Source: an uncultured Gammaproteobacteria bacterium (lineage in GTDB: Bacteria > Patescibacteriota > Microgenomatia > Levybacterales > GWA1-39-11). From it: DNA of 64,000 bases. The stretch lies in the NCBI GenBank assembly GCA_964425075.1, contig CAYRKM010000001.1, forward strand, positions 601,827 through 665,826, given 5' to 3'. Shown here in pieces: positions 17,387-47,373 of this stretch; position 1 is the stretch's first letter; the number at the start of each line of letters is the position of its first letter. Made by a program: the position numbers and the translations under genes. The notes below the pieces were generated by a model. That model did not search any database and was not told the origin of the DNA. It saw nothing but the letters and a program-made list of their open reading frames with translations.

Positions 17387-17456
17387 ACCTCAAGCTATCC
17401 TTATAAGATTCTCCTACTAGACTTCACAAAACACCTGCGGTACCTTGTGTCCTGAG

Positions 17457-18797
17457 ATGGATAACAGTAACGTATTAGCAAGAGCACCTATAGTTTCATT
17501 ACCTACAACTGAATACTGTCTTTATGCCAGAAAATCGACAGAAGATGACGAAAGACAAGCTATGTCAATCGATTCTCAAATTAAGGAGATGAATGATATG
17601 GCTATACGAGACGGTCTGTTTATCAAAGAAATCCGCCAAGAGAAACATTCGGCTAAAATGTCTGGACAAAGGCCAGTATTTGCAAAATTAATTGAAGATA
17701 TTCGAATTGGAATGTTTACAGGCATTTTGACATGGGCGCCAGATAGATTAAGTAGAAACGCAGGCGACTTAGGGATGTTGGTAGATCTTATGGATCAGGG
17801 AAGCTTACATCACATAAAAACCTTTTCTCAAAGTTTTTCTAATAATCCGAATGAGAAATTTTTACTTATGATCCTATGTTCTCAGGCGAAATTAGAAAAT
17901 GATCAAAAAGGAATAAATGTTAAAAGAGGAATTCGTGCAAAATGTTCAATGGGCTGGCGTCCAGGGATGCCGCCCATCGGTTATTACAATAGAGCTTTTA
18001 ATGGAGTGAAAGATATAATTGTAGATCCTGATAGAGGCCCAATAATCAGAGAAATGTTTGATCGAGTAGCAAAAAATGGAGATAGTGGTAAGACTTTAAA
18101 GAAGTGGCTAGACACTTGCTTAACCACTAGAGCTGGAAAGAAAGTGACACTAAGCCAGATTTATATGATGCTTAAAAATCCTTTTTACTACGGGGAATTT
18201 GAATATCCTATAAACAGCGGCAATAGATATAAAGGAGCTCATCCACCTTTAATATCTAAGGAAATATTTGATGAGGTACAAAATCAACTAACTGCACCCA
18301 AGAGAGGCTGGGGATTTAAAACATTTGCCTTTAAAGATTTATTTAAATGTGGGAATTGTGGGTCAAGTGTAATTGGAGAAGAAAGGTGGAGAAAGAGAAA
18401 AGCAAGACCCCCAGTTCATCACGTCTATTATCATTGTACGCGGCAGAAAAATTGGGATTGTAAAGAACCGTATCTAACGGAGGAAAAATTAATAAAAGAA
18501 TTACTACGATATATCAATTTTAACGTTATTGCCCATCCACAAACTATAAATATTACTCCGGAGCTAAAAAGATATATGAATGAATACGAAAAAGCTAGAG
18601 AAATAACCCTCCTCCAGCAAGATATTGATCCAGACCACATCCAGTTTGGAATCTATGAATATTCTCAATATGCACTTAAGAACGGCTCAATTGAGGAGAA
18701 AAGAGAAGTAATAACTTCAATAAAAACACAGCTGTATATTCACAATCAGTTTATTAGTTCATTATCTAAAGTAAATGATGCACTAGTATCTAGTTGA
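17457..18797 (+). CDS. Large serine recombinase (resolvase catalytic domain + recombinase domain + zinc ribbon)
   Basis: YARKSTEDDERQ nucleophile-serine motif, recombinase domain, CGNCGS...YYHCTRQ zinc ribbon; ~80% identical by eye to paralog at 47374. Confidence 0.85.
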   Translation: MDNSNVLARAPIVSLPTTEYCLYARKSTEDDERQAMSIDSQIKEMNDMAIRDGLFIKEIRQEKHSAKMSGQRPVFAKLIEDIRIGMFTGILTWAPDRLSRNAGDLGMLVDLMDQGSLHHIKTFSQSFSNNPNEKFLLMILCSQAKLENDQKGINVKRGIRAKCSMGWRPGMPPIGYYNRAFNGVKDIIVDPDRGPIIREMFDRVAKNGDSGKTLKKWLDTCLTTRAGKKVTLSQIYMMLKNPFYYGEFEYPINSGNRYKGAHPPLISKEIFDEVQNQLTAPKRGWGFKTFAFKDLFKCGNCGSSVIGEERWRKRKARPPVHHVYYHCTRQKNWDCKEPYLTEEKLIKELLRYINFNVIAHPQTINITPELKRYMNEYEKAREITLLQQDIDPDHIQFGIYEYSQYALKNGSIEEKREVITSIKTQLYIHNQFISSLSKVNDALVSS

Positions 18798-18832: not shown

Positions 18833-21505
18833 ATGCCACAACTATTCAAATCAATATATTTCCCTGATTATAATTCTGACAACAAAGAATCAAAATCATT
18901 TACGTTGGCATTTTCAGATAAGGATCAAGACATTTATGAACTATTAAGGACATCATCGAGCTTAGAGGTAAGAAGTTTATTATCAGTATTTTCATTTTCG
19001 GAATTAATTGATAAAGCTAATCAAGAAAGTCTACCTTTAAATACCTACTGTTTATGGAAAATCAGAAAAAACTTACAAAAGATTACCAGTCAAAATAAAA
19101 CTAACATCCAAACTAACTTATTTCCGCTAGATCCAGTACAGGTTACATTTGAAGGAGGAAAAAACTTACCCCTTCAATCTTGGTATCCCTACCTTGAAGG
19201 ATATTCTCCAGATTTTGTCGAGCACATTATAAAGAATTATTTAACACAGAACACAAGAACAGTTTATGATCCTTTTTCTGGATCTGGAACTACCCCTCTT
19301 GTAGCCTCATCTTTGAAGTATGATTCTTACTATTCAGAAATAAATCCCTTATTGCAATTTTTATCACAAACAAAATTCAGAGCTAAAAACATTAAAGATA
19401 AAAAAAAGACTATATCTAAGCTCACGATAATAAATAACACTCTTAAAAGTAAGATTCTAGCTTCTGATGAAGATATAGATCTTCGAGAAAACTATATTAG
19501 AACCTTTGGAAAGAGTAAGTTTTTCGATGATAAAGTTTTCTCTAACGTTTTAAGGACAAAGACGTATCTTAGGAGACTCGCTAAGCTAGATAGCTTGACA
19601 GCGGATTTAGTATGTACGGCAATCCTAGGAAGTTTAATAAAAGTATCTCTTTTAAAAAGGCAAGGTGATCTAAGGTATAAAACTAAAGATGAATTATCTA
19701 AAACAAAGACAGCTGAATATTTTGAAACTATACAGGCAAATCTGCAAAACATAATAAATGACATTTCGAATCTAAAGAAAGCTCCAGAGCCTATCTTCCT
19801 TACAGATGATGCAAGAAAAATAAAAGATTTAGACAAAATTGGTATAGACGCAGTAATAACTAGCCCCCCCTATCTGAACGGTACTAATTACTTTAGGAAT
19901 ACAAAGTTAGAGTTATGGTTTTTGGGATATTTAAAATCATTAAGTGATTTGACTGACTTTAGGCAACAGGCAGTAACTGCGGGTATTAATGACGTCTCTT
20001 TAAAAATTGAAAAGCAAATAGAAAATGAACTTCTTAAGGAGCTTTTGAAAGAAATTAATAAATCTGCATACGATCGAAGAATTCCTAAAATGATTCATGA
20101 TTATTTTGCAGATATGCAAACTATCTTTGAAGGATTAAAGAAACATTTAAATGATAATGCAGTTTTGGCTATCGATTTGGGAGATTCAATTTACAGTAAT
20201 GTTCATGTTAGAACTGACGAAATCCTGATTTCAATATTAAAACAATTAGGATATGAATTTGAGAGAAGCATTGTTTTGCGAAGACGGATATCCAAGAATG
20301 GCGAAGAACTGAGACAGGTGTTATTAATATTTAAATATAGACAATCCAAGCAGCCCAAAATAATCCCTATGAATAAATCTAATAAATGGGATCAGGATTG
20401 GAGTAAGTTTAAAAACGATTTGCCTCATCAGCAAATTCCATTATCAAAGAGAAATTGGGGAGATCCTATACATTCTTTGTGTTCATATCAAGGTAAGTTA
20501 AAGCCTTCTATTGCTCATATGTTAACCTCGATTTTTGTACCACCTAATGGCTCAGTATTAGATATTTTTGCAGGAGTTGGAACTATTCCACTAGAAGCCT
20601 CTCTCCAAGGAAAAAAATCATTTGGATTTGATATAAGTGCTCCTGCTGTTGCGATATCAAGAGCAAAATTATCTAAGATTTCAAGCGATAAAACTTATGA
20701 AATAATAAATGATCTTGAACAATATATTTTAAGCGGTAGAACTGACAAGTCTGAGCTTTCAAAAGCCCAAACATTTGGATTCAATAAGAAATTAATCGAT
20801 TACTTTCATCCAAATACATTAAAAGAGATTTTGTTAGCACGGGAATACTTCGGGAAGATAGGATATGATACACCAGAAAAGTCTATAGTTCTTGCCTCTA
20901 TTCTTCACATTCTTCATGGAAATAGACCGTATGCATTGAGTAGAAGATCTCACGGAATTACACCCTTTGCGCCTACAGGCGAATTTGAATATAAAAACCT
21001 TATAACTAAACTCAAAGAAAAAGTTTCCAGATCATTAAAATATGTTGATAGAAGTAATTTTGTAGAAGGAAATATGTATTTTCAAAATGCTCTAAATGAG
21101 TGGCCTAAAGAGATAAAGAATTTAGATGCAATCATCACAAGTCCGCCTTTCTTTGATAGTACGAGATTTTATCTTTCTAATTGGATGAGGATATGGTTTG
21201 CTGGCTGGGATGAAGAAAACTTCAAAACAGACTCTGTCGATTTCATAGAAGAATTACAAAAGAAAGATTTTTCCGTATATGACTCAATTTTTAAACAAGC
21301 CCGTGAGCGATTGAATAAAAATGGCGTATTTGTGATGCACTTAGGGAAAAGTAACAAGTGTAATATGGCAAAAATATTATCAGAAAAATCCAAGCCGTGG
21401 TTCAATACTTACGATATCTTTGAGGAAAGTGTAAGGACGGGAGAATCACATGGAGTCACAGATAAAGGAACAGTAGTCGACCATCAATATTTGGTATTAA
21501 ATTAG
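18833..21505 (+). CDS. Tandem two-domain DNA methyltransferase (two alpha-class N6A/N4C MTase domains)
   Basis: Motif I VYDPFSGSGTT + motif IV ITSPPYLNGTNYF in first half; VLDIFAGVGTIP + ITSPPFFDSTRFY in second half. Confidence 0.8.
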   Translation: MPQLFKSIYFPDYNSDNKESKSFTLAFSDKDQDIYELLRTSSSLEVRSLLSVFSFSELIDKANQESLPLNTYCLWKIRKNLQKITSQNKTNIQTNLFPLDPVQVTFEGGKNLPLQSWYPYLEGYSPDFVEHIIKNYLTQNTRTVYDPFSGSGTTPLVASSLKYDSYYSEINPLLQFLSQTKFRAKNIKDKKKTISKLTIINNTLKSKILASDEDIDLRENYIRTFGKSKFFDDKVFSNVLRTKTYLRRLAKLDSLTADLVCTAILGSLIKVSLLKRQGDLRYKTKDELSKTKTAEYFETIQANLQNIINDISNLKKAPEPIFLTDDARKIKDLDKIGIDAVITSPPYLNGTNYFRNTKLELWFLGYLKSLSDLTDFRQQAVTAGINDVSLKIEKQIENELLKELLKEINKSAYDRRIPKMIHDYFADMQTIFEGLKKHLNDNAVLAIDLGDSIYSNVHVRTDEILISILKQLGYEFERSIVLRRRISKNGEELRQVLLIFKYRQSKQPKIIPMNKSNKWDQDWSKFKNDLPHQQIPLSKRNWGDPIHSLCSYQGKLKPSIAHMLTSIFVPPNGSVLDIFAGVGTIPLEASLQGKKSFGFDISAPAVAISRAKLSKISSDKTYEIINDLEQYILSGRTDKSELSKAQTFGFNKKLIDYFHPNTLKEILLAREYFGKIGYDTPEKSIVLASILHILHGNRPYALSRRSHGITPFAPTGEFEYKNLITKLKEKVSRSLKYVDRSNFVEGNMYFQNALNEWPKEIKNLDAIITSPPFFDSTRFYLSNWMRIWFAGWDEENFKTDSVDFIEELQKKDFSVYDSIFKQARERLNKNGVFVMHLGKSNKCNMAKILSEKSKPWFNTYDIFEESVRTGESHGVTDKGTVVDHQYLVLN

Positions 21506-22548
21506 TATCCTAAAAGTTTTTTATTTGCGTCAGAAAGTTGTTCGACTAAATTATAGTCTTCAAGTAATTTCTTAATATCGTCAATTCTCCTACTTAAGTC
21601 CGTTGCAGATCTCACTGTCAGTAATCTTGTTACACACGCATTTACATCAATACGAGGATTAAGAATAGGCTCTCTTTTTGATATTAGCGATAAATCAGCT
21701 CCTGTAATCTGAGCTAAGCGTATAAGTTCCTCATTGGTATAAAAATCACTAGGCCACTTGTCGTTTTTCGCTGCATTTGCTTTTGTTGAGAGTAATGCTG
21801 CATTTTGTGAACTGAGAGGATAAAGCCACCTAGATGGCAAAATGTGATCGATTGCCCACGATCCTCTATCAGATTTGTCAATAATGATACCGGTTTTAAA
21901 ACATTTAGAATCAAATCGTTCAAACAATTCGTCTAAATCGACGGTTTGATTCTCACCCTCAAGTAGTAATTCAGCGGCTCTACGTTTGCTGGAAGATTCA
22001 TGTAGTTGTTGTTGCGTTCTTAGTGGGTTTAAGGTTGTGTTAATAACGGCTTTACAGCTTCTGCATTCAAGTTGTTTCTCCAGAGGTCCCCATCCAACGT
22101 GACGATCGAACGCCGACCCGGGAAGAACTCTACCACAGGTTCCGCACTGTTTCCAATAATTAGCTTTATCTGCTACTGCAATTCTAAAAAACGCTCTCCA
22201 AAATCGTTCTATATGCAAATCTCCTGGTAGGGTGTATTCTTCCTTCCAGTTTGTAAAAGGTGTTTCCTTGCCTGACGCATCAGTTAATGGTAATCCTGAC
22301 TGTCTTGAGTGAATATATCCACAAAAATCACATTTCCATTCTTCATTATCGTAAGCTTCTGTTTCCGATAGCAATCGTTCACCAATAGAATGCTTGTTAA
22401 GCATGTTACAACGTAGGCAATTAAAAATTACCCAGACATCATTGGGTTTTGCCCCAGCAATCCTAGGAATTTCCGTCCTGTTTGTAGTTGATCTTCTTGG
22501 CATATTGTTGCTTGTATTATATCCTAAGTGCCTTCTAAAGAAAAACAC
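21502..22548 (-). CDS. HNH-family endonuclease with zinc-ribbon (candidate restriction endonuclease partner of tandem MTase); start uncertain
   Basis: Multiple CxxC pairs (CLRC, CDFCGY, CGTCG, CRSC) and AIDHILP...N HNH-like motif; convergent and 4-bp overlapping with MTase. Confidence 0.55.
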   Translation of the reverse strand: MFFFRRHLGYNTSNNMPRRSTTNRTEIPRIAGAKPNDVWVIFNCLRCNMLNKHSIGERLLSETEAYDNEEWKCDFCGYIHSRQSGLPLTDASGKETPFTNWKEEYTLPGDLHIERFWRAFFRIAVADKANYWKQCGTCGRVLPGSAFDRHVGWGPLEKQLECRSCKAVINTTLNPLRTQQQLHESSSKRRAAELLLEGENQTVDLDELFERFDSKCFKTGIIIDKSDRGSWAIDHILPSRWLYPLSSQNAALLSTKANAAKNDKWPSDFYTNEELIRLAQITGADLSLISKREPILNPRIDVNACVTRLLTVRSATDLSRRIDDIKKLLEDYNLVEQLSDANKKLLGY

Positions 22549-22692
22549 CTATGATTGGAATTCGAACCGCAACCTCGGTATTCAGATGTTTAAAGGTGTG
22601 AATAGTGAGGGTACGGTGAGATACTAACACGTGCTTGCTGAGAGGCTCGGTCTAGAACCTTCTTATCCTTATAACGATTGTCTCACATCAAG

Positions 22693-22730
22693 GCTAAATG
22701 AGACAAACGAGACACTATAAAAAAGGGTGT
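22693..22730 (+). repeat. Copy A of conserved hairpin motif (aGGCTAAATGAGACAAAyGAGACACyATAAAA)
   Basis: Near-identical 38-nt stretch also at 53786-53822; contains GTCTCA...TGAGAC stem. Confidence 0.6.
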
Positions 22731-22788
22731 CTTATTTTCTATAATATCCCATAACAACACAACAGATAAATGATATATTTTGATATAG

Positions 22789-23382
22789 TTGTGTTTCTGC
22801 CCTTTAATTATGGCAAGGGCAAGAAAATATACAACATTTAATAGGGCAAGGCTTATGTTATTTACTCATTCATATGCCTGTTATGCTATTACTTGCCATG
22901 TAAAAACGAAATATAAAATTAATGATAACCTAACGCCACGAGAATTACGAAAGAGATATATCAATAAGAGAATTATTCCAGAAATTTCTAGGCTTTCTTA
23001 TTCGCTACATTTTGACTACGAAGTTCTATGGAGAGCAATACTATTGAATAAAAAGCCGCTACTGAGTAAGCAGGTAAGAAGCAGTGATGGAATTAGGTTA
23101 TATCTTGCCATCGAGGACGAACTGATTGCTCTTGCCGAATCAAAAAGGCACAGATCACGAGACTTTTTCGACCCTGATTATGAAAATGAATATGCGCTAC
23201 TCAGTATTGCAATAGAACGAGCAGCAGGAAGTCTTCTTAATGACGTAGAGGATGACTTTGTCTTTGATCAGCAATGTGAAGAAATGAAGAAGATATGTTT
23301 CAAGTGGTATTACAAAATTGCGTATCGATATAAACTGCCGACAACAAGAATTGTCCCGTTTGTTTTGAGACTTATCAGCTGA
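22789..23382 (+). CDS. Hypothetical protein (start uncertain)
   Basis: ORF only; convergent with helicase gene, 4-bp gap. Confidence 0.35.
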   Translation: MCFCPLIMARARKYTTFNRARLMLFTHSYACYAITCHVKTKYKINDNLTPRELRKRYINKRIIPEISRLSYSLHFDYEVLWRAILLNKKPLLSKQVRSSDGIRLYLAIEDELIALAESKRHRSRDFFDPDYENEYALLSIAIERAAGSLLNDVEDDFVFDQQCEEMKKICFKWYYKIAYRYKLPTTRIVPFVLRLIS

Positions 23383-23385
23383 AGT

Positions 23386-26300
23386 TTATTGACTGGCTAT
23401 CACTTCTAAGTTTATTGCGTGTGTTTCTTTAAGATAATTTTCTGTAACGGCGAGTAGTTCTAGTTGACTATTACTTGCTTGGTTTTTAGATAAACCTGGC
23501 TGAACAACTGTGATTGTAAATTCAGGAATAAGATAAGGTACTTTATTTCTTATTTCTTCGAGTTTTTCTAAATCACCTTTTTCAAATCTTGAAACCAATC
23601 CTTTCTTTTGTCGACTCACCTCACGTAAAGTTAAGTGATCGATAAGTTTTTGTATATCATCTCTCCAATGAACACTTTTTTGTGCTTGACCGCAAACTGC
23701 ATATAGATCTTCGACTCTTGCTCCGGGAGTGGCAGATTGGGAGAACTTACAATGGTATAAATCAACTATTAATTTCTCCTCTGTCATTTTAATTCCTATT
23801 ACATCCGCAGCTTCATAGGAATCGTCATCGTCAAAAACGACATCATATTGTGAATCGTGGGTATCCTTTAGTGCCTCTTGTATGACTCGATATTGTATTG
23901 AGTCAGTATCTTTATTTACTGTCTGCGATTCTTTACTCAAATCAATACCATTCCAGTCCCATATTTGAATCTTATCCTTATCAAAAGGTGCAGGCGGATC
24001 AGCAGGATTTTCAAAAAGAACGTTGTATTGTAGGTATGAATCGTTTTCAAAACGAACAATAGGAGAATTCTCTTTTAACCAATCAGGAAGGGATTGTGGT
24101 TTTCTCGCAATTATAATTTGTGCAGTGTCTTGCCCAGTCGGTAAATACTCAACATTGTTATTATTAAATGCAATTTTATATTCAACACTTTTGTTTTCAC
24201 TAAAAACCTGGAACTTTATTGGGCCTGTTTTATTAAAGTCCGTTAACTCAATACCTGCTTCATACAATGGAATCGTCTCTCCCGCGATATTTAGTTCAAC
24301 AGTTTCCTCGCTTTTCAAGAGTAAGTCTTCTGGCCACTCTATTGTTAGCGGTACGAGGTTTGGCCGTTGTGTTATTAAAGTTGGGCGCAATACATATTTA
24401 AGAATATCTGTTGCAGAAAAAGTATCATCAAGTAATTTTGTGCCTGTTTTTCGGCACCATTCAATCCATTCCGAGATATCATCTGCTATTTTATAAGACC
24501 AAATCCTCCCTTTGTAAGATGACCCGATGCTTGTTTTACTACCATTCTCAAAACCTCTTCCAAAAAGATTGGATTTAATCCTATTTTGTTGCTGAGCGTC
24601 CGAGATTGCTGATAGTATGTCTGATCCAACATACATTGTGAATCGCATTGCTCGATTTAAGGAATGTGTTAAGCCAAGATTCATAAGGCTTAATCTATTG
24701 ATCCCAGAGAGAGTACGAAACACTTGTTCTCCACGAACTATTTCAACATCATCGCCACAAATAGCTTTTGCTAATTCCCCATGGAAGGACCTGTTGTTTG
24801 AGCTATTGATAAATAATAATTTTTGAGCTTCATCCCAATGAATCAAATACAGATCCCAAATCGTATTATGGATATCCTTAAAATTGCCCCAAGAAATTGG
24901 TTCTTTCTCGCAGGTAACAAAGAACACGACTTTTTCTCCTTGATTTACAGTAGGGTCAATAAAAAGCCTAGATTCTTTTACTACTTTTGGTATGTTTTCG
25001 GGAGTCCACCGCGTATTATTTGTTTTATAAACAACAGTGCTCATTTTAGGCAAAATATTTTGAGGTAAGAATTCTGGAGGCAAATCCACAAATCCTTCAA
25101 AAAACTGAGATAGCTTTTCCTGTTTGGTAGTCGCTCCTTCACTTAAGTTCCGTAGTAATTTATCCCAATCAGCATCTTCTGCATATAAGTCTTTTAACGC
25201 TTCTTCAACACCAGGGTTGGCGATATTTGCAACAATCGTTGCGGAACCAATATTTGGTTTTGTTCTTGTAAATCTTCCTGTAAACTGCAATGTAATGGCA
25301 AGACCTTTATGCACATCATGGAGTGCTGCAATTTTTAATTCAGGTAAGTCAAAACCTTCTCCAAACATGTCAACACATACAATAATTCTTGATTTTCTTT
25401 CATTTATTTCATTAAGAGATTGGCGTTTTTCAGCCACTTTTTTCTTACTATGAAAAAGTTGAGGATTATGATTTGCGCCGTGTTGTTGGTAAATAGCAAA
25501 TATATCTCGCGCACGAGTTATACTATCTGCTCGCGCCAAGATAATATGGTCTAGATTTTGTGCAAGGTCTTCTTCCAGCTTTTTGATTGCTCTTTTGGCA
25601 ATAGTCTCATCGGCACGTTGTTTATTATAATCTCTTACACCAATAAAACTGATTTGCTTGAAATACCCTTCGCTTTGCGCTTTTCGTAATGGATAATTAA
25701 AAATTACCTTTCCATCAATATGTCTTCCATCTCCTCTAAAAGGTGTGGCGGTAAATTGTAATATGGTTTTTTCTTTGAAGAATTTTCTGAATTTTTGCCA
25801 AGTTGGTGCTGAAATATGATGTGCCTCATCTATAAAAAGGTACGTAGCTGTTCCAGCCATTGCCTTTTGAATTTCTTCTGAGCATCCACCTACTATTGCC
25901 ATTGTCGTTATCACCACATTGCATGACCCAAAAAATTTATTTACCTCATCTACTGTTTTGAGTCGATGCTCGAGGGTCCCCACGATAGGATTTTCTGCTT
26001 TCCTTCCAACAGCTCCAATTTTTCTTAATAATCCGAGACCTAGGAATTTATTCGTGATCTGATCTCTTAGCGCATCTGTTGGTACAACTACTAGGATTTT
26101 ATCTATTCGCTCGCAAACCATAAGTGCAAGCATTGTTTCCGTTTTTCCTGTACCAGTAGGCATAACAATGGTGGCTGATGCGTTTGTTACTTTCCAATGA
26201 GCGAGTGCGGCATGGAGTGCACCGATTTGGGGCGGACGCAATCCTTCTTCAAGAATTTGATCATTTTCTCGTTTTTCTTCGACGAAAGAGAATTGCTTAT

Positions 26301-26466
26301 CCCAGGATTTAATTACTTTTTCGCAAGATCTGGGGAATGTAGCAATTCTTCTATTACTAAGTGTTAACGCTCTAGGTTTATCGCCGGAAAATGTAGCAGA
26401 TTTATTAACCTGCCTAATAGGATTACCTAATACTTTTGTGTTGATTATAAATTGATCATTATTCAC
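23386..26466 (-). CDS. SF2 helicase (DEAH, Type III Res-like) with ~500-aa C-terminal extension containing a PD-(D/E)xK-like motif
   Basis: Motif I MPTGTGKT, motif II FIDEAHH, motif III TATP, motif VI QFTGRFTR; C-terminal DVIGIKMTEEK pattern. Confidence 0.75.
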   Translation of the reverse strand: MNNDQFIINTKVLGNPIRQVNKSATFSGDKPRALTLSNRRIATFPRSCEKVIKSWDKQFSFVEEKRENDQILEEGLRPPQIGALHAALAHWKVTNASATIVMPTGTGKTETMLALMVCERIDKILVVVPTDALRDQITNKFLGLGLLRKIGAVGRKAENPIVGTLEHRLKTVDEVNKFFGSCNVVITTMAIVGGCSEEIQKAMAGTATYLFIDEAHHISAPTWQKFRKFFKEKTILQFTATPFRGDGRHIDGKVIFNYPLRKAQSEGYFKQISFIGVRDYNKQRADETIAKRAIKKLEEDLAQNLDHIILARADSITRARDIFAIYQQHGANHNPQLFHSKKKVAEKRQSLNEINERKSRIIVCVDMFGEGFDLPELKIAALHDVHKGLAITLQFTGRFTRTKPNIGSATIVANIANPGVEEALKDLYAEDADWDKLLRNLSEGATTKQEKLSQFFEGFVDLPPEFLPQNILPKMSTVVYKTNNTRWTPENIPKVVKESRLFIDPTVNQGEKVVFFVTCEKEPISWGNFKDIHNTIWDLYLIHWDEAQKLLFINSSNNRSFHGELAKAICGDDVEIVRGEQVFRTLSGINRLSLMNLGLTHSLNRAMRFTMYVGSDILSAISDAQQQNRIKSNLFGRGFENGSKTSIGSSYKGRIWSYKIADDISEWIEWCRKTGTKLLDDTFSATDILKYVLRPTLITQRPNLVPLTIEWPEDLLLKSEETVELNIAGETIPLYEAGIELTDFNKTGPIKFQVFSENKSVEYKIAFNNNNVEYLPTGQDTAQIIIARKPQSLPDWLKENSPIVRFENDSYLQYNVLFENPADPPAPFDKDKIQIWDWNGIDLSKESQTVNKDTDSIQYRVIQEALKDTHDSQYDVVFDDDDSYEAADVIGIKMTEEKLIVDLYHCKFSQSATPGARVEDLYAVCGQAQKSVHWRDDIQKLIDHLTLREVSRQKKGLVSRFEKGDLEKLEEIRNKVPYLIPEFTITVVQPGLSKNQASNSQLELLAVTENYLKETHAINLEVIASQ

Positions 26467-26539
26467 GGTGTTTTGAAGCTGTTCCTTTTATTAGCTGAAT
26501 TATATACAATACGAATGTATAAAGCTAGAATTATGGGCT

Positions 26540-27283
26540 ATGAAAAAAGACTATTTTGCTGAAAAAACGAAGCGACTGAAACAGGAAATAAAAGTGCTTG
26601 TCAGCAGACCTGCATTTCAGAAAGAAATTGCTGACCTCAGGAAAAAATGGAATATTCCTTCCGAAGGAATAAAGAATGAGGATGACAATTTAGAATGGAA
26701 TCATAAGCTTGATATTGCAACTGACGAGTATTACAAAACAGAATGGCCGAAGTGTCGAGCAGAGATTGATAGCTTAAATAAAGAGAAAAAGTTCCTAGAA
26801 GCTGAGGATAAAAGAAAAGAGTGTAACGCTAAAGCTCCAATGCATGCATTTCGTGAGGATGTATGGGGTGTCGTCAGAAAATATCGCCTTTCTCCACGTT
26901 GGCACACTGGTATTCGTCGCTACCTTTTATTTAATGATCCCGATAATCTGAACTTGACCGCAGGAGTAACTATGGTTACGACATGGGAAAACGGTATGAA
27001 AAGACTTTCGCTTGAAATTGATGGCGATACGACCCTCAATGACATCAGGCATATTTGGCCGTGGGTGAAGCGAATGCAGAAAGATTTAATGTATAGGAAG
27101 GCTGATAAGTTCCAGCCTATTAAGAACTTTGACCGAGATCAAAGAATTTATGAGCTTGAACAAGAAGGAAAGTCGGAAAAGGATATTGGGGATATCATAC
27201 AGCAAGAATTTGGTGACTCACTTGATTACAACGAAATAAATATAGCTATCAACCGCTACAAGAAACGCCTCAACATCAATTAG
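26540..27283 (+). CDS. Hypothetical protein (phage-like, basic/acidic mixed)
   Basis: ORF only. Confidence 0.4.
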   Translation: MKKDYFAEKTKRLKQEIKVLVSRPAFQKEIADLRKKWNIPSEGIKNEDDNLEWNHKLDIATDEYYKTEWPKCRAEIDSLNKEKKFLEAEDKRKECNAKAPMHAFREDVWGVVRKYRLSPRWHTGIRRYLLFNDPDNLNLTAGVTMVTTWENGMKRLSLEIDGDTTLNDIRHIWPWVKRMQKDLMYRKADKFQPIKNFDRDQRIYELEQEGKSEKDIGDIIQQEFGDSLDYNEINIAINRYKKRLNIN

Positions 27284-27333
27284 TCACAATTGTTGTTTAT
27301 ACACAAGCCCTTTTTCATCCTATTATTGATAGT

Positions 27334-28626
27334 ATGTTGAACGCACATACTAAACAAGAGAACCCATATTCTATCGTTTATGTTTCAGCTCAAGAACTTC
27401 GCCCCGCTGAATACAATCCAAGAAAATGGGATGAGGAAGCTGCCAAGCAATTAACGGAGAGTATTAAGCGCTTCGGATTGATAGATCCCATTATTGCGAA
27501 TGGTGCATCTAATCGAAAAAATATTGTAATTGGTGGACATTTCAGACTCGAAGTAGGAAAAAGACTAGGTATAGAAAAAGTACCTGTGGTTTATGTTAAT
27601 ATCCCCAATCTTCAGAAGGAAAAGGAGTTGAATCTACGTCTTAACCGCAATACTGGAGAATGGGATTTTGAACTTCTGAAATCATTTAATGTCGAGCTGT
27701 TACTTGATGTTGGATTTGATGATAGCGATCTTTCACACATTTGGGATGATAACTTGGGAGTCGAAAATGACGACTTTGATGTTAAAAAAGAAATTGAAAA
27801 GATCAAAGAACCAAAAAGCAAATGGGGAGATATATACCAGCTTGGATCGCACCGACTTATTTGTGGAGACGCGACAGATCCCGAAGTACTCAAAAAGCTA
27901 GTACAGGATGACAAGATATCCATGCTCTACTGCGATCCCCCATATAATATCTCGCTCGATTACAGCAACGGGATTGGAACAAATGGAAAATATGGCGGGA
28001 AAACGAATGACAAGAAATCTGAAGAAGAATATAAAGCGTTTCTCAAGAAAACGCTTGAAAATGGGCTATCAACTGCTTTTCCTGATGCACACGTGTTTTA
28101 TTGGTGTGATGAAAATTACATTGGACTAATCCAGGGAATATACAAGGAACTTGGGATTATAAACAAACGAGTTTGTCTTTGGATTAAGAATAACCAGAAC
28201 GTCACTCCACAAACTGCATTTAATAAAGTGTATGAACCATGCGTTTATGGTATTCAAGGTAATCCGTATCTTTCCGAATCAGTCAAAAACCTGAATGAGG
28301 TTCTCAATAAAGAGGTAGGAACAGGAAATCGACTGACAGATGATATCCTTGACCTTTTTAATATATGGCTAGCAAAACGTCTTCCTGCACAAGAATACGA
28401 ACATCCGACAGAAAAACCACCAACACTCCATGAAAAAGCATTACGTCGTTGCACGAAAGCTGGAGACATCGTGCTTGATGTATTCGGTGGCTCCGGATCT
28501 ACTCTCATTGCGTGTGAACAACTCAAACGCAGAGCATATCTTTGCGAAATTGAGCCTATTTTTTGTGACCTTATTATCAAGCGCTTCGAGAAGTTGACTG
28601 GACAGGAGGCAAAGCTATGCAAATAA
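27334..28626 (+). CDS. ParB-like nuclease domain fused to beta-class DNA methyltransferase
   Basis: N-terminal ParB/Srx fold (VIGGHFRLEVGKRLG); motif IV CDPPYNI then motif I VLDVFGGSGSTLIA. Confidence 0.8.
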   Translation: MLNAHTKQENPYSIVYVSAQELRPAEYNPRKWDEEAAKQLTESIKRFGLIDPIIANGASNRKNIVIGGHFRLEVGKRLGIEKVPVVYVNIPNLQKEKELNLRLNRNTGEWDFELLKSFNVELLLDVGFDDSDLSHIWDDNLGVENDDFDVKKEIEKIKEPKSKWGDIYQLGSHRLICGDATDPEVLKKLVQDDKISMLYCDPPYNISLDYSNGIGTNGKYGGKTNDKKSEEEYKAFLKKTLENGLSTAFPDAHVFYWCDENYIGLIQGIYKELGIINKRVCLWIKNNQNVTPQTAFNKVYEPCVYGIQGNPYLSESVKNLNEVLNKEVGTGNRLTDDILDLFNIWLAKRLPAQEYEHPTEKPPTLHEKALRRCTKAGDIVLDVFGGSGSTLIACEQLKRRAYLCEIEPIFCDLIIKRFEKLTGQEAKLCK

Positions 28627-29372
28627 AAATAGGTGATGTTCTACAACTCGGTGATCATCGCTTGGCGTGTGGAGATGCAAAAGACTCAGCGTTGTTAAAG
28701 AGGCTTATTTTAGATGATCGAATCTCTCTCCTTCTGACGGATCCGCCCTACGGCGTGGCTTATGTTGAAGGAAAAGCTGAACTTACGGAAATTAAGAGTA
28801 ATAAAAAGATAGCCAACGATCACAACCAAACAGAAGGAACGTATCGCCATTTTACGAAGGAATGGCTAGAAGCAATAAAGCCATATCTTGCCAAGAAAAA
28901 TTCTTTTTACATTTTTAACTCAGACAAAATGGTGTTCTCCTTGCGAGATGGCATTGTTGATGCGGGTTTTCGACTCACACAACTACTTGTGTGGATCAAA
29001 AACAATGTTGTCGTCGGACGGCTTCACTATTTACCACAACATGAGCTGATCGCATACGGATGGTTTGGAAGTCATGAGTTCTATAAAGCAAAGGACAAAA
29101 GTATCCTCATCTATCCAAAACCTAATAAAAGCCCACTTCATCCAACCATGAAGCCAGTCGGACTTCTCAGAAACTTAATCCTTAATAGCTCGAAAATTGA
29201 TGACTATGTCTATGACCCATTCGGCGGATCGGGATCAACACTTATTGCTTGCGAACAAACGAAAAGGAAATGCCTCATGGTGGAGATAGATCCGGAGTAC
29301 TGCCAAGTGATTATTGATCGCTTTGAAAAAGTTACAGGTTACAAAGCAGAAAGGACAAAAGATGGAAAATAA
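28617..29372 (+). CDS. DNA methyltransferase (beta-class N4C/N6A)
   Basis: Motif IV LLLTDPPYGV followed by motif I VYDPFGGSGSTLIA. Confidence 0.8.
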   Translation: MQIKIGDVLQLGDHRLACGDAKDSALLKRLILDDRISLLLTDPPYGVAYVEGKAELTEIKSNKKIANDHNQTEGTYRHFTKEWLEAIKPYLAKKNSFYIFNSDKMVFSLRDGIVDAGFRLTQLLVWIKNNVVVGRLHYLPQHELIAYGWFGSHEFYKAKDKSILIYPKPNKSPLHPTMKPVGLLRNLILNSSKIDDYVYDPFGGSGSTLIACEQTKRKCLMVEIDPEYCQVIIDRFEKVTGYKAERTKDGK

Positions 29373-29790
29373 TCCGACGATTCAGAAGCGAATAGATAAA
29401 AATCAGGAACTACTTATTGAGCAGCTTAAGAAAACGCCAATTGTTCAAGTTGCGTGTGAGAAAGTCGGGGTAGGCCGAGCTACTTATTACCGATGGAGAA
29501 AAGAAAATGAAGTATTTGCCGAACAAGCAGATGAAGCAATAGCTGAAGGAGCGTTACTTGTGAATGACATGGCCGAGTCCCAACTCATGGCAGCGATTCG
29601 GGATAAAAATCTCACAGCCATCATTTTCTGGTTGAAGCACCATCACCCTCACTACGCAACGAAAGTTGAAGTGACGGCTAGACTAAAAGCTGATAACGAA
29701 GTTTTAACGCCTGAACAAGAAGCACTAGTAACGAAAGCATTAAAACTTGCCTCATTAATTCCTGAAACAAAGGAGGAAGTAAAACAATGA
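29362..29790 (+). CDS. Terminase small subunit-like HTH protein
   Basis: VACEKVGVGRATYYRWRKE helix-turn-helix; immediately upstream of and overlapping TerL. Confidence 0.5.
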   Translation: MENNPTIQKRIDKNQELLIEQLKKTPIVQVACEKVGVGRATYYRWRKENEVFAEQADEAIAEGALLVNDMAESQLMAAIRDKNLTAIIFWLKHHHPHYATKVEVTARLKADNEVLTPEQEALVTKALKLASLIPETKEEVKQ

Positions 29791-31313
29791 TTGTTGGAGC
29801 AATTACAGATAACGTGCTCGAAGGAATAAAAAGAGAAAGATCCGTGAGACGAGAAGTCGCAAGAAGTAGCCATCTTTGGTTTTTCTCAATATACCTTGGA
29901 CACTATATCAAGTATCCATTTGCGCCGTTTCATTCAGAAATGTTTGCGCTGACGGAAAATGCTGACATACGATTATCAGTTCTTGTAGCATTTCGTGGTT
30001 CTGGAAAATCAACGCTTATAACTCTGTCTTATCCAATCTGGGCAATTGTGGGAGCACAGCAAAAGAAGTTTGTGCTCATCCTCTCTCAAACCCAAACGCA
30101 AGCAAGACTTCATATGGCAAACATAAAACGAGAGCTTGAGAGTAATGACTTATTAAAAGCAGATATTGGACCATTTGAAGAAGTAAGTGACGAATGGGGA
30201 TCAAATTCAATTGTCATCTCAAAATATGGCGCACGTATTACTGTTGCCTCAACGGAGCAGAGTATTCGAGGATTAAGACATGGGGAGCATCGACCTGATC
30301 TGGTTATTTGTGATGATGTGGAGGATTTAAATAGTGTAAAAACCCGGGAAGGACGAGACAAAACATTCCAATGGCTGGTTGGTGAAGTGCTCCCAATCGG
30401 AGATCAAGAAACAAAGATTGTAATTGTTGGAAATCTTTTGCACGAAGACAGTCTCTTAATGCGACTGAAAAAAGGAATTGAAAATGAAAAACTTAATGGA
30501 AAATATTTTGCCTATCCACTCCTAGATATAAATAATACTATTGCATGGCAGGCTAAATTTAAAACTTTAGAGGACGTTGAGAGATTACGGGCAAGTATTG
30601 GAACAGACTCTGCGTGGTATCGAGAGTATTTATTACGAATAATTTCTGATGCGGACCGCTTAGTCCATCCTGAATGGATTCAGTATTATGACCGGATACC
30701 ATCTGAAGATAGTGGTGACTTCCATTACACTGCAACTGGTATTGATCTGGCGATATCTCAACGGGAGTCTGCAGACTATACTGCAATGGTTTCAGCTAAA
30801 GTATTTGGCTACTATGAGAAATTAAAAATATACATCCTGCCCCATCCCGTAAATGAACGTTTAAGTTTTCCTGAAACCTACGAGAAAGCAAAACAATTGT
30901 CCAAAGATTTAGGGGACGGTCACTATACTAAATTATTTATCGAAGATGTAGGATATCAAGCTGCTCTTATCCAAGACTTATCAAATCACAATGTTCCAGC
31001 AGAAGGGGTAAAGGTATCAGGACAAGATAAAAGATCAAGACTTGCTTTGATAACGCATCTTATTAAGCAAGGAAAAGTTCTCTTCCCTAAGGGAAACCAA
31101 GCTGAAGAACTTATTATGCAACTTACCGGGTTCGGTATTGAGAAACATGACGATTTAGCTGATGCGTTTTCGCTTCTACTTCTAAAGATCCTGGAAGAGG
31201 ATCAAGGAGAGCCAAGTGTCTATATCATCGATATGGGAAGCAGTCTTTATGATAGATATTCACCACTCGGGAATCTGAACGAAGACCGTTTTACACTTGA
31301 TACAAAATTTTAG
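29787..31313 (+). CDS. Phage terminase large subunit (ATPase + nuclease)
   Basis: Walker A AFRGSGKSTLI, Walker B LVICDDVED, C-terminal RNaseH-like nuclease with DDLADAF. Confidence 0.85.
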   Translation: MIVGAITDNVLEGIKRERSVRREVARSSHLWFFSIYLGHYIKYPFAPFHSEMFALTENADIRLSVLVAFRGSGKSTLITLSYPIWAIVGAQQKKFVLILSQTQTQARLHMANIKRELESNDLLKADIGPFEEVSDEWGSNSIVISKYGARITVASTEQSIRGLRHGEHRPDLVICDDVEDLNSVKTREGRDKTFQWLVGEVLPIGDQETKIVIVGNLLHEDSLLMRLKKGIENEKLNGKYFAYPLLDINNTIAWQAKFKTLEDVERLRASIGTDSAWYREYLLRIISDADRLVHPEWIQYYDRIPSEDSGDFHYTATGIDLAISQRESADYTAMVSAKVFGYYEKLKIYILPHPVNERLSFPETYEKAKQLSKDLGDGHYTKLFIEDVGYQAALIQDLSNHNVPAEGVKVSGQDKRSRLALITHLIKQGKVLFPKGNQAEELIMQLTGFGIEKHDDLADAFSLLLLKILEEDQGEPSVYIIDMGSSLYDRYSPLGNLNEDRFTLDTKF

Positions 31314-31662: not shown

Positions 31663-32223
31663 ATGAAGAAATTACTTAAATGGGGAGGAATCGGACTCAT
31701 AATTATTATTGTGCTTGCAGTAATTGCAAGTAGCGGTGGAGATAAATCAGGTAACCAATCCACAACTGACTCAAACTCAGCGGGATCGCCTGATAGCAAG
31801 CAGGACAATACTGCTAAAACATACGGTCTTAATGAGACTGTCCAGGACGGAGATCTTGCTTTTACCGTTACCGGTGTTGAAACAGCCAAAACGCTTGGAA
31901 ATCAATTCACCGAGAAAGATTCTCAGGGCACGTTTTACGTTGTAACCCTGAAAATTGAAAATAAGGGAAACAAAACCGCAACCTTTGATAGCTCAATGGC
32001 GAAAGTAACAGACGACCAAGGCCGTGAATTTGAACGCTCTATCGAAGGCCAAACCGCCAAAGGTATGGCGCAGGGTAGTGTGGATTTATTTCTACAGCAA
32101 ATTCAACCATCATTATCTGTAACAGGAGACTTGGTGTTTGATCTGCCAGCGGATATGCAAAATCCAATGCTGGTTGTTAAAGGTTCACTCTTTGCAAAAG
32201 GAGCGAAAATTAAGCTTCAGTAA
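31663..32223 (+). CDS. DUF4352 domain membrane-anchored protein
   Basis: N-terminal TM, Ser/Thr-rich linker, FTVTGVE...YVVTLKIENKG...DDQGREF pattern of DUF4352; strong SD AAAGGAGGTG 8 nt upstream. Confidence 0.6.
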   Translation: MKKLLKWGGIGLIIIIVLAVIASSGGDKSGNQSTTDSNSAGSPDSKQDNTAKTYGLNETVQDGDLAFTVTGVETAKTLGNQFTEKDSQGTFYVVTLKIENKGNKTATFDSSMAKVTDDQGREFERSIEGQTAKGMAQGSVDLFLQQIQPSLSVTGDLVFDLPADMQNPMLVVKGSLFAKGAKIKLQ

Positions 32224-32224
32224 A

Positions 32225-32274
32225 AATAACGGATCCGTTATTTTCAAAAGCCCCTTCTTTAAGGAGGGGCTTTT
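32225..32274 (+). terminator. Two tandem intrinsic terminators after DUF4352 gene
   Basis: AATAACGGATCCGTTATTtt perfect palindrome then AAAAGCCCCTtctttaaggAGGGGCTTTT hairpin with T-tract. Confidence 0.6.
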
Positions 32275-32279
32275 AGTTC

Positions 32280-32306
32280 TTGACACACTACTACACAATG
32301 TAGTAG
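32280..32306 (+). promoter_or_regulatory. Promoter -35 TTGACA with overlapping cop-box-like palindromic operator CTACTACA-caa-TGTAGTAG upstream of csoR
   Basis: TTGACA at 32280-32285; perfect 8-bp inverted repeat at 32288-32306; same motif recurs 3 more times in island. Confidence 0.5.
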
Positions 32307-32326
32307 ATTATCTCTATGGGGGGTAT

Positions 32327-32599
32327 ATGTCATACAGGCCTAAAGATACACAAGAGCGAATAATCCACCGTCTCAAGATCGCAAAGGGGCAACTAGAGAA
32401 AGTAATCAAAATGGTTGAAGAAGATACATATTGTATTGATATCCTTCACCAATCGCACGCTATACAGAAAGCCCTAAAAGAGACAGATCATCTCATGCTT
32501 GAGAATCATCTACAAAAATGTGCCGCTGATGCTATTGGCAAAGGTCGCAAAGATGAAGCAATAAAAGAAGTAATGCAAGTTTTCAAAAAATCTCAATGA
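32327..32599 (+). CDS. csoR: CsoR/RcnR-family metal-sensing transcriptional repressor
   Basis: ~91 aa from Met64 of track ORF; conserved C-x24-H-x3-C style residues (YCIDILHQSHAIQKAL) of CsoR family. Confidence 0.75.
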   Translation: MSYRPKDTQERIIHRLKIAKGQLEKVIKMVEEDTYCIDILHQSHAIQKALKETDHLMLENHLQKCAADAIGKGRKDEAIKEVMQVFKKSQ

Positions 32600-33384: not shown

Positions 33385-33422
33385 ATGTAAATATTGAAAT
33401 GTAGGACATAATAACTTTTACT

Positions 33423-47304: not shown

Positions 47305-47373
47305 TTTTGATTAATCCTCATAGTATTTTGCGTCTGGACTTCAAAGAACGGTTGCGGTACCTTGTCCCCTGAT

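What the first reader, a model, noticed from the sequence alone, without database searches (positions are those of the whole stretch)
22789..27283. Helicase-nuclease candidate defence gene flanked by small unknown ORFs
The 1026-aa minus-strand protein has a complete DEAH SF2 helicase core (motifs in the features) in its N-terminal half. The C-terminal half is unannotatable but acidic-rich and contains a DVIGIKMTEEK PD-(D/E)xK-like strand pattern. Its architecture resembles single-gene helicase-nuclease anti-phage proteins (Hna-like, DUF3427-type). It sits in a defence/mobile context between an R-M system and phage-derived MTases and is flanked by hypothetical genes (197 aa, 247 aa) that could be partners.
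Basis: inference. Interest (0 to 1): 0.7.

Follow-up and report, generated by a model that had tools for sequence, protein, structure and literature searches.

The report
Stand-alone helicase-nuclease in defence hotspot
The 1026-residue gene is a real, intact member of a large, unnamed family of single-protein helicase-nucleases, and here it fills a swap-in "defence slot" of a mobile element in a Patescibacteria-type genome, so it is very probably an anti-phage or anti-plasmid enzyme whose two small neighbours are not its partners.

Summary

All helicase and nuclease motifs are invariant in 89 of 89 relatives.

The family is large: over 5700 hits, about 1550 50%-identity clusters and at least 569 species, including E. 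coli and Klebsiella plasmids. Its architecture is fixed, its taxonomic spread is patchy, and its neighbours vary and are rich in defence genes.

The 197-aa and 247-aa genes are backbone genes of a Patescibacteria integrative, terminase-bearing element. Between or beside them, related elements carry CBASS, an OLD-family nuclease or an R-M system instead. The helicase gene is therefore an exact single-gene cassette in a defence hotspot.

It is not Hna, not DUF3427/SauUSI-type and not a type III Res. I read it as a new variant of the single-polypeptide nuclease-NTPase defence proteins. Its function and trigger are untested.

The parts
23386..26466 (-). Helicase-nuclease gene, 1026 aa, GTG start, stop codon included. 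It forms a single-gene cassette.
   Evidence: ORF list and translation. 96%, 90% and 83% identical full-length homologues. Homology with sister elements breaks at 23386 (L005), about 23375 (L095) and 26482 (L094).
25183..26241 (-). SF2 helicase/translocase core, aa ~76-428, RadD/XPB/SauUSI/ResIII type.
   Evidence: Pfam ResIII 2.8e-25, DEAD and Helicase_C. PDB sequence hits to SauUSI, XPB and RadD. Foldseek hits to RadD, XPB, LlaBIII and SauUSI.
26140..26163 (-). Walker A / motif I, MPTGTGKT (aa 102-109).
   Evidence: G105, G107, K108 and T109 are invariant in 89 of 89 relatives.
25819..25830 (-). Motif II, DEAH (aa 213-216).
   Evidence: Invariant in 89 of 89 relatives.
25264..25293 (-). Motif VI, TLQFTGRFTR (aa 392-401).
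   Evidence: Q394, R398 and R401 are invariant.
24367..25059 (-). RdgC-like / TBP-like DNA-binding fold, aa ~470-700. Boundaries are approximate.
23962..24366 (-). All-beta domain, aa ~701-835, function unknown. Boundaries are approximate.
   Evidence: Secondary structure of the models. No specific fold match was identified.
23389..23904 (-). C-terminal PD-(D/E)xK-fold nuclease domain, aa ~855-1026.
23746..23814 (-). Putative catalytic motif, E885-x2-D888-x16-H905-C-K907.
   Evidence: E885, D888, H905 and K907 are invariant in 47 of 47 and 89 of 89 relatives. D888 lies just before strand 2, and H-x-K at the end of strand 3.
22789..23382 (+). p197, a conserved hypothetical gene (likely start at ATG 22810). 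It is the left flank of the cargo slot, not a partner.
   Evidence: Homologues in L012 (57%), L098 (71-92%), L095 (49%, where the cargo is CBASS) and L002 (31%, not adjacent). Absent from L005 and from all non-Patescibacteria loci.
26540..27283 (+). p247, a conserved hypothetical gene. It is the first backbone gene and the right flank of the cargo slot, not a partner.
   Evidence: 40 clusters, with named members only in Patescibacteria. Always followed by ParB-MTase, TerS and TerL, whether the cargo is the helicase, an OLD nuclease, CBASS, an R-M system or unknown genes. 43% identical where the helicase is 83% identical.
27334..31313 (+). Element backbone: ParB-MTase (27334-28626), MTase (28617-29372), TerS-like (29314-29790), TerL-like (29787-31313).
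   Evidence: Pfam and PHROGs matches. Syntenic with L005, L094-L100 and L038/L039.

Best explanation
The gene encodes a stand-alone, single-polypeptide ATP-dependent helicase-nuclease that acts as an innate defence effector against invading DNA (phage or plasmid).

Proposed mechanism, all inferred:
- The RadD/XPB/SauUSI-type SF2 motor binds DNA and translocates on it using ATP.
- The RdgC-like and beta domains hold or sense the DNA substrate. If the domain dimerises as RdgC does, it could encircle the duplex.
- The C-terminal FokI/BspD6I/HamA-like PD-(D/E)xK domain (D888, H905, K907) cuts DNA without sequence specificity once the motor is engaged. Cutting probably needs two nuclease domains to meet, as in FokI, type ISP and SauUSI enzymes.

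In this window the gene is the sole cargo of a defence hotspot, bounded by p197 and p247, of an integrative terminase- and MTase-bearing element in a Patescibacteria-type genome.

Shown: the ORF, the motifs and their invariance, the fold assignments, the fixed architecture, the distribution, the hotspot swapping and the defence-island neighbours. Inferred: defence function, dsDNA translocation, cleavage chemistry, dimerisation and the trigger.
For: Motifs and domain structure:
- Both active sites are intact and invariant in 89 of 89 relatives.
- The C-terminal domain has a PD-(D/E)xK fold closest to non-specific cleavage modules and defence nucleases: N.BspD6I, FokI, HamA, Shedu, LlaBIII, Upx, Hna.
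- The 582-aa C-terminal module occurs only behind this helicase, in about 1550 cluster representatives.

Distribution:
- The family is patchy and found across phyla, including an archaeon, at 40-55% identity.
- It occurs on at least 57 plasmids but essentially not in phages.

Neighbourhoods:
- Neighbours vary between loci.
- They include Azaca, Hma, DRT, Lamassu, IetA, AbiL, PARIS and type III MTases.
- In B. thuringiensis the neighbours are an AAA ATPase and an ATP-dependent helicase, which I read as Gabija-like.
- In E. coli the neighbour is retron Ec78 with PtuAB, and on a Klebsiella plasmid the gene is flanked by IS5 elements.

Hotspot:
- In sister elements the slot next to p247 holds an OLD-family nuclease, CBASS, an Alw26I-type R-M system or unknown genes.
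- The homology breakpoints coincide with the ends of the helicase ORF.
Against: - There is no experimental evidence for any family member.
- No full-length match exists to any PADLOC v2 model, so defence rests on association.
- The position normally held by an acidic residue in (D/E)xK is His. Catalysis is therefore plausible but unproven.
- All structural inference rests on AlphaFold models.
- Nothing identifies the trigger or how self DNA is spared.
- In one clade the gene is operonic with AddAB-like genes, so it is not always autonomous.
Confidence: 0.68

Rival explanations
1. It is a modification-dependent (type IV-like) restriction enzyme of the SauUSI logic. The motor and nuclease are licensed when the RdgC-like and beta domains read a modified base in foreign DNA. 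This would explain why no cognate methyltransferase is needed.
For: The closest solved sequence relatives of the motor include SauUSI (7clg, E 5e-9; profile 9.5e-13), and the PADLOC mREase_IV model matches at 1e-10. The gene is solitary in most loci, with no co-conserved MTase. In the Azaca-adjacent clade the neighbour system prefers modified T4 DNA in vitro (bioRxiv 10.1101/2025.07.10.664194).
Against: No SRA, DUF3427, PLD or other known modified-base reader was detected. The gene shares its element with three or four N6/N4 MTase domains, which would be risky for an m6A- or m4C-dependent enzyme. Nothing here tests modification dependence. This is a sub-case of the defence reading rather than a contradiction of it.
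Confidence: 0.15
2. It is a sensor of aberrant DNA structures or ends, working like Hachiman, Hna or Druantia. The motor surveys DNA, and the nuclease is released on ssDNA, forks, free ends or recombination intermediates. In one clade it cooperates with a dedicated AddAB-like end-processing pair. The outcome may be abortive infection.
Against: The AddAB-like link is confined to essentially one clade and is absent from the window's clade. The RdgC similarity is at fold level only, with no Pfam RdgC hit. No trigger data exist.
Confidence: 0.3
3. It forms a multi-gene system with the flanking 197-aa and 247-aa proteins as partners.
For: p247 is adjacent and divergent in W, L001-L003, L005, L012 and L098. 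p197 is convergent and adjacent in W, L012 and L098.
Against: p247 keeps its place next to ParB-MTase, TerS and TerL when the slot holds an OLD nuclease, CBASS, an R-M system or unknown genes. p197 flanks a CBASS cargo in L095. Both are absent from the roughly 80 non-Patescibacteria loci. p247 diverges much faster than the helicase, 43% against 83% identity.
Confidence: 0.04
4. It is a housekeeping or element-maintenance enzyme: a RadD-like repair helicase-nuclease, or a replication or recombination function of the terminase-bearing element.
For: The helicase core resembles RadD and XPB repair helicases. It is associated with AddAB-like genes in one clade.
Against: The distribution is patchy and not syntenic, on plasmids and IS-flanked islands. 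Only 8 of 5426 complete E. coli genomes carry it. Sister elements do without it and carry defence systems in its place.
Confidence: 0.06

Closest known systems
Hna (Sinorhizobium meliloti helicase/nuclease; PDB 9YKJ, 10UJ, 9YHN)
   Different: Hna is 845 aa, with a DinG/XPD-like motor carrying an Arch domain, and it is a 3'-5' ssDNA exonuclease (PMC13381803). This motor is RadD/XPB/SauUSI-type. The protein has an extra ~400-aa RdgC-like plus beta module. No sequence similarity to Hna was found among the listed PDB hits.
SauUSI-type ATP-dependent type IV restriction enzymes (PLD-helicase-DUF3427; PDB 7CLG)
   Same: It is among the closest solved sequence relatives of the motor domain (PADLOC mREase_IV 1e-10). 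It is also a single-protein motor plus nuclease plus extra DNA-binding domain, with no cognate MTase.
   Different: SauUSI has an N-terminal PLD nuclease and a C-terminal DUF3427/SRA-like reader. This protein has neither. Its nuclease is a C-terminal PD-(D/E)xK domain, and its extra domain is RdgC-like.
Hachiman (HamA nuclease + HamB helicase)
   Different: Hachiman has two proteins, with HamA as DUF1837 and a different helicase clade. Here the two functions are fused in the order helicase then nuclease, with an intervening RdgC-like module. There is no DUF1837 or HamB match.
Type IIS / type ISP cleavage modules (FokI, N.BspD6I/R.BspD6I, LlaBIII)
   Different: This protein has no fused methyltransferase or sequence-recognition domain, and no co-conserved MTase. 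Its motif is D...HxK instead of D...(D/E)xK.
RdgC (E. coli recombination-associated DNA-binding protein, PDB 2OWL)
   Different: There is no sequence-level RdgC match. The domain is embedded in a 1026-aa enzyme. Ring-forming dimerisation is not shown.

Membership tests
Hna | DinG/XPD-type SF2 helicase with a reduced Arch domain (PMC13381803). | tested here: not met
   The motor matches ResIII, RadD, XPB and SauUSI by sequence and fold. No DinG or XPD appears among the listed top hits.
Hna | C-terminal PD-(D/E)xK nuclease domain. | tested here: met
Hna | Detectable sequence homology to Hna over the full length. | tested here: not met
   Hna chains are in the PDB copy (9yhn appears). They are absent from the phmmer hits at E<=0.01 and from the 60 best profile hits, the weakest of which is at E 0.013.
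SauUSI / DUF3427-type type IV restriction enzymes | N-terminal PLD nuclease and C-terminal DUF3427 target-recognition domain. | tested here: not met
   Pfam at E<=0.1 finds only ResIII, DEAD, Helicase_C, SWI2_SNF2 and AAA_22. The PADLOC mREase_IV hit covers the helicase region only, 230-560 of 953.
Type III R-M Res subunit | Co-conserved adjacent Mod methyltransferase, and a Res-type C-terminal endonuclease. | tested here: not met
   No MTase is co-conserved across 92 loci. The ParB-MTase next door belongs to the element backbone whatever the cargo. L004 has a separate type III-like pair beside the gene.
Hachiman | Two-gene HamA (DUF1837) plus HamB helicase operon. | tested here: not met
PD-(D/E)xK nuclease superfamily | [quoted passage not shown] | tested here: inconclusive
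   Fold and topology are met. D888 and K907 are invariant, but the middle acidic residue is an invariant His (H905). Catalytic competence cannot be tested with these tools.
RdgC family | RdgC fold and sequence family (Pfam RdgC); ring-shaped dimer that binds DNA. | tested here: inconclusive
Known defence systems in PADLOC v2.0.0 (including Upx, Hhe, Mokosh, Druantia, DISARM, Zorya, PDC candidates) | Full-length match to a system's protein model. | tested here: not met
   Only partial helicase-core matches were found: PbeA, mREase_IV, Cas3, DpdF, DrmA. Newer DefenseFinder and PADLOC releases could not be run.
Defence gene by genomic association (operational criterion) | Recurrent location in defence islands or MGE hotspots beside known systems. 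| tested here: met
   The hotspot slot is shared with OLD, CBASS and R-M cargo. Neighbours include Azaca in 12-13 loci, Hma, DRT, Lamassu, PARIS, AbiL and retron Ec78.

The most novel reading that the evidence does not exclude
This is the founding example of an unrecognised, very widespread stand-alone defence enzyme class with three coupled parts. An XPB/RadD-type motor is joined to an RdgC-like DNA clamp, which dimerises around DNA and perhaps reads recombination or replication intermediates. A FokI-like His-variant PD-(D/E)xK nuclease does the cutting. One clade has recruited a private AddAB-like end-processing pair and travels with Azaca. In addition, Patescibacteria carry a capsid-less, terminase-bearing integrative element with a true defence hotspot, analogous to the hotspots of P2/P4 and PICI elements.
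Probability: 0.25. Interest if true: 0.75.

Novelty: new variant of a known kind. Interest (0 to 1): 0.58.

Why it matters
If confirmed, this adds a large, cross-phylum family to the single-protein nuclease-NTPase immune effectors. The family has about 1550 clusters at 50% identity and occurs in at least 569 species. It is present in E. coli chromosomes and Klebsiella IncF/IncHI plasmids, yet is annotated only as "DEAD/DEAH box helicase".

Its domain combination of an RdgC-like module with a His-variant nuclease has not been described in the sources I could search. The E. coli and Klebsiella copies make it directly testable.

The finding also shows that candidate-phyla-radiation bacteria have a mobile element with a swap-in defence slot. 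That slot could be used to discover further defence genes, for example the 803-aa and three-gene unknown cargos.

Tried and rejected
- **Family libraries.** Pfam, NCBIfam, PADLOC and PHROGs on the three proteins gave only helicase-core hits. Nothing matched the C-terminal half, p197 or p247.
- **PDB sequence searches.** Single-sequence and profile searches found helicase cores only.
- **Full-length Foldseek.** It was swamped by helicase cores, so I modelled aa 445-1026 separately.
- **AFDB search.** The afdb50 library was unavailable.
- **Type III-like R-M with the adjacent MTases.** Rejected, because the MTases are backbone genes.
- **AddAB-like genes as universal partners.** Rejected, because they are confined to one clade plus L026. 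An HMM search found no divergent AddAB-like pairs elsewhere, apart from one extra UvrD-like ORF in L049.
- **Literature searches.** I searched Hna, helicase-nuclease and defence terms, RdgC with anti-phage, Azaca, and the accessions WP_001549206 and WP_074091248. None revealed a description of this family.
- **Promoter and terminator scan of 22400-27500.** It gave no more sites than shuffled sequence.
- **att-like repeats.** I found no exact 18-mer repeats between the tRNA-Gln region and elsewhere in the window.


Full report
**1. The observation**

The minus-strand ORF at 23386-26466 is real. It has 1026 codons and a GTG start.

Its N-terminal half carries a complete SF2 core:
- Walker A MPTGTGKT, aa 102-109
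- motif Ia, aa 126-136
- DEAH, aa 213-216
- TAT, aa 239-241
- motif V, aa 364-373
- motif VI QFTGRFTR, aa 394-401

Pfam matches ResIII (2.8e-25), DEAD and Helicase_C at aa 76-417. Nothing in Pfam, NCBIfam, PADLOC or PHROGs matches aa ~430-1026.

To the left lie a fused double type II MTase (18833-21505) and an HNH-like endonuclease (21502-22548). To the right lie a ParB-MTase (27334-28626) and a second MTase (28617-29372).

Two details need correction:
- The conserved nuclease motif is not D...EEK. In a 47-sequence alignment, and again in 89 relatives, E896, E897 and K898 vary. E885, D888, H905, K907 and Q927 are invariant, and D880/D881 nearly so.
- The C-terminal half is only mildly acidic.

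**2. What the protein is**

A full-length AlphaFold model built on 47 homologues has mean pLDDT 82. A model of aa 445-1026 has pLDDT 90.6 and pTM 0.87.

*Motor.* The closest solved relatives by sequence and fold are RadD, XPB/Rad25, SauUSI, and the type I and type ISP motors. It is not the DinG/XPD type.

- then Shedu, LlaBIII, NucS, AspBHI, Upx, Can2, Hna and McrC

The model's secondary structure is helix 857-866, strands 876-879, 889-894 and 898-906, helix 918-930, then strand 980-993. [quoted passage not shown] D888 sits just before strand 2, and H905-x-K907 at the end of strand 3.

The inferred architecture is:
- a small N-terminal domain
- SF2 motor, aa ~76-428
- RdgC-like domain, aa ~470-700
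- beta domain, aa ~701-835
- PD-(D/E)xK nuclease, aa ~855-1026

Domain boundaries are approximate, because I could not inspect coordinates.

**3. The family**

The protein belongs to a large and uniform family.
- More than 5700 database proteins match. Full-length identity is 49-57% across phyla and most members are 1090-1110 aa.
- A scan of species-representative genomes found at least 569 relatives. They include Patescibacteria, Acidobacteriota, Alpha-, Beta- and Gammaproteobacteria (Pseudomonas, Rhizobium, Methylobacterium), Streptomyces, Paenibacillus, Bacteroidota, Planctomycetes and one Aenigmatarchaeota genome.
- The best genome match is a Patescibacteria MAG at 90%, so the window is from that group.
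- Searching 1.84 billion cluster representatives with the 582-aa C-terminal module alone gave 1549 hits. Every full-length hit is a ~1000-1120-aa protein with the module at about 500-1100. The module therefore exists only behind this helicase.
- All ATPase and nuclease motif residues listed above are invariant in 89 of 89 relatives. Both activities are under selection.
- Annotated records call it only "DEAD/DEAH box helicase (family protein)".

**4. Genomic context outside the window**

ORFs flanking the gene in 92 loci were clustered by all-against-all BLAST. No neighbour is conserved family-wide. Two recurrent patterns emerged.

*AddAB-like and Azaca.* In 21 loci the gene lies about 15 nt downstream of two same-strand genes. 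One is a 708-aa PD-(D/E)XK protein, and the other a 1131-aa UvrD-helicase plus PD-(D/E)XK protein, forming an AddB/AddA-like pair. In 12-13 of these loci an Azaca system (ZacABC; ZacC E=0, ZacB 8e-168, ZacA 2e-92) is the next neighbour, in either orientation. These loci form one clade, plus one Paenibacillaceae outlier.

*Other defence genes.* A census of 148 other neighbours from 52 loci against PADLOC found Hma (A, B, C), DRT reverse transcriptases, LmuB, IetA, AbiLi, AriA, NsnB, DrmD, PDC-S22 and type II/III MTases.

Annotated records agree:
- On a Klebsiella IncFIB/IncHI1B plasmid the gene is solitary between IS5 copies.
- On a B. thuringiensis plasmid it lies beside an AAA ATPase plus an ATP-dependent helicase, which I read as Gabija-like.
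- In E. coli ECONIH5 it lies beside retron Ec78 RT-PtuA-PtuB, IS remnants and an integrase.

Only 8 of 5426 complete E. coli genomes carry it. It is on at least 57 plasmids at over 80% coverage. It is absent from phage records, apart from two 30%-identity matches in atypically large Acinetobacter 'phage' records.

**5. The two small flanking genes**

*p247 (26540-27283).* It has 40 homologous clusters, and the only named ones are Patescibacteria. In every locus examined it is followed by ParB-MTase, sometimes a second MTase, a TerS-like gene and a TerL-like gene, often with a serine recombinase nearby.

The gene or genes immediately upstream and divergent from p247 differ between loci:

| Cargo in the slot | Loci |
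|---|---|
| Helicase-nuclease | window, L005, L012, L098 |
| OLD-family ATPase-TOPRIM protein (AriA/Old/GajA models 1e-27 to 1e-23) plus a 198-aa gene | L094 |
| CBASS cyclase (4e-109) plus 2TM effector (1e-38) | L095 |
| Alw26I-type R-M system | L099 |
| 803-aa unknown protein | L096, L097 |
| Three unknown genes | L100 |

*p197 (22789-23382).* It is also conserved, in L012 (57%), L098 (71-92%) and L002 (31%). Its 49% homologue in L095 sits on the far side of the CBASS cargo.

*Breakpoints.* At the DNA level the window is homologous to L095 at 22660-23375 and 26963-31202, to L094 from 26482 onward, and to L005 up to exactly 23386.

The helicase ORF (23386-26466) is therefore a one-gene cassette. 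Its ends coincide, within about 15 nt, with the breakpoints of a variable slot bounded by p197 and p247. This shows that the small genes are element backbone rather than partners. It is also the strongest argument here that the gene is an autonomous defence module.

The divergence rates point the same way. p247 is 43% identical between loci where the helicase is 83% identical.

**6. How it most likely works**

This section is inference from the anatomy and from established knowledge of the compared families.

- The motor belongs to the group that includes dsDNA translocases: type I HsdR, type ISP, SauUSI and XPB.
- The nuclease resembles non-specific cleavage modules that act when brought together (FokI, BspD6I) and the Hachiman effector HamA.
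- RdgC is a DNA-binding protein that forms a ring-shaped dimer.

I therefore propose an ATP-driven translocating nuclease whose RdgC-like and beta module clamps or senses the DNA substrate. Cleavage by the D888/H905/K907 site would follow engagement or dimerisation.

How self DNA is spared is unknown. Two sub-models remain open:
- Modification-dependent restriction, as in SauUSI. The gene is solitary with no cognate MTase, but no known modified-base reader is present, and it co-resides with N6/N4 MTases.
- Structure or end sensing, as in Hachiman and Hna. This fits the RdgC-like fold and the AddAB-like partners in one clade.

**7. Comparison with known systems**

- **Hna:** it works like Hna in outline but is not a member. 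The motor clade differs, there is an extra 400-aa module, and there is no sequence homology (PMC13381803).
- **SauUSI/DUF3427:** not a member. It has no PLD and no DUF3427.
- **Type III Res:** not a member. No Mod gene is co-conserved.
- **Hachiman:** not a member. It is a single polypeptide with no DUF1837.
- **PADLOC v2:** no model matches beyond the helicase core.
- **Literature:** the searchable literature gave no description of this family.

It fits the general class recently called nuclease-NTPase systems (bioRxiv 10.1101/2025.07.10.664194), as a fused, single-protein form. I cannot exclude that a newer DefenseFinder or PADLOC release, or a paper outside the library, already names it.

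**8. Verdict**

- Novelty: a new variant of a known kind. It is a large, uncharacterised family with a distinctive RdgC-like module and a His-variant nuclease motif.
- Confidence that it is a defence effector is about 0.7. The mechanistic details carry lower confidence.
- Interest is moderate to good. The family is widespread and testable in E. coli and Klebsiella, and the Patescibacteria hotspot is a useful discovery handle. New candidate defence helicase-nucleases are, however, not in themselves surprising.

Noticed in passing
window 14745-16550 (+), compared with 29787-31313 (+): The 601-aa ORF is a chimera. An Acyl_transf_3 N-terminus (aa 14-265) runs in frame into the C-terminal ~355 aa of a TerL-like terminase that is 77% identical to the intact TerL at 29787-31313. 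The two copies lie 14,682 nt apart as direct repeats of 76-82% nt identity. This looks like the scar of a second, truncated element copy.
   Followed up: partly
window 17445-18797 (+) and 47362-48702 (+); tRNA-Gln 49466-49537 (-): Two paralogous large serine recombinases are 68% identical. Each follows a TerL, HTH and small-gene block in at least one related locus. This suggests two tandem integrative elements, the second possibly ending near tRNA-Gln. I found no exact 18-mer att-like repeats between the tRNA-Gln region and elsewhere in the window.
   Followed up: partly
window 26540-31313; loci L005, L038, L039, L094-L100: A conserved Patescibacteria backbone runs p247, ParB-MTase, (MTase), TerS-like, TerL-like, with no capsid or portal genes seen next to it. 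It carries a variable slot holding the helicase-nuclease, an OLD nuclease, CBASS, an Alw26I-type R-M system or unknown genes (803 aa; a 332+285+289-aa trio). It resembles a satellite or cryptic-prophage defence hotspot. The unknown cargos are candidate new defence genes.
   Followed up: partly
window 32138-36859 and beyond; L095 12682-14744: A copper and metal-handling cluster follows the TerL/HTH block both in the window and in the CBASS-bearing element L095. It comprises a CsoR-type repressor, DUF7282, a cupredoxin-like protein, a beta-propeller and a P-type ATPase. It may therefore be element cargo rather than core genome.
   Followed up: no
loci L035, L041, L044, L045, L052, L054, L056, L058, L060, L062-L065, L067-L071 and others: In one clade of the family (mostly Alphaproteobacteria, plus a Pseudomonas) the helicase-nuclease is the third gene of an apparent operon. 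It follows an AddB-like 708-aa PD-(D/E)XK protein and an AddA-like 1131-aa UvrD-plus-nuclease protein. An Azaca system (ZacABC) is immediately adjacent in 12-13 loci, in either orientation. This could be an unrecognised multi-gene system or an Azaca accessory module.
   Followed up: partly
L001 11849-12961; L002 4273-5634; L003 8485-9846: In the 83%-identical relatives, a diversity-generating-retroelement-like pair (bAvd accessory protein plus RVT_1 reverse transcriptase) and a small HTH gene lie just downstream of the helicase-nuclease.
   Followed up: no
window 18833-22548: The 890-aa methyltransferase contains two MTase modules (PADLOC MTase_II hits at aa ~102-501 and ~545-819). It overlaps tail-to-tail by 4 nt with a 348-aa gene carrying an HNH-like nuclease (PHROG 'endonuclease VII'; Cas9 HNH region). 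This is probably a type II R-M system inserted beside the hotspot.
   Followed up: partly
L101 (E. coli ECONIH5 chromosome, NZ_CP026202.1 103400-126390): The E. coli family member WP_001549206.1 sits in an IS-riddled island inside a disrupted fimbrial operon. It lies next to retron Ec78 (RT, PtuA, PtuB) and near an integrase. It is a convenient native context for experiments.
   Followed up: no
window aa 1-75 of the helicase-nuclease (26242-26466), compared with homologues: The Patescibacteria clade (about 1025 aa) lacks roughly 70-100 N-terminal residues present in most other family members (about 1090-1110 aa). The missing stretch includes conserved 'NPI.QL' and 'RW..P' motifs. The role of this N-terminal extension is unknown.
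   Followed up: no
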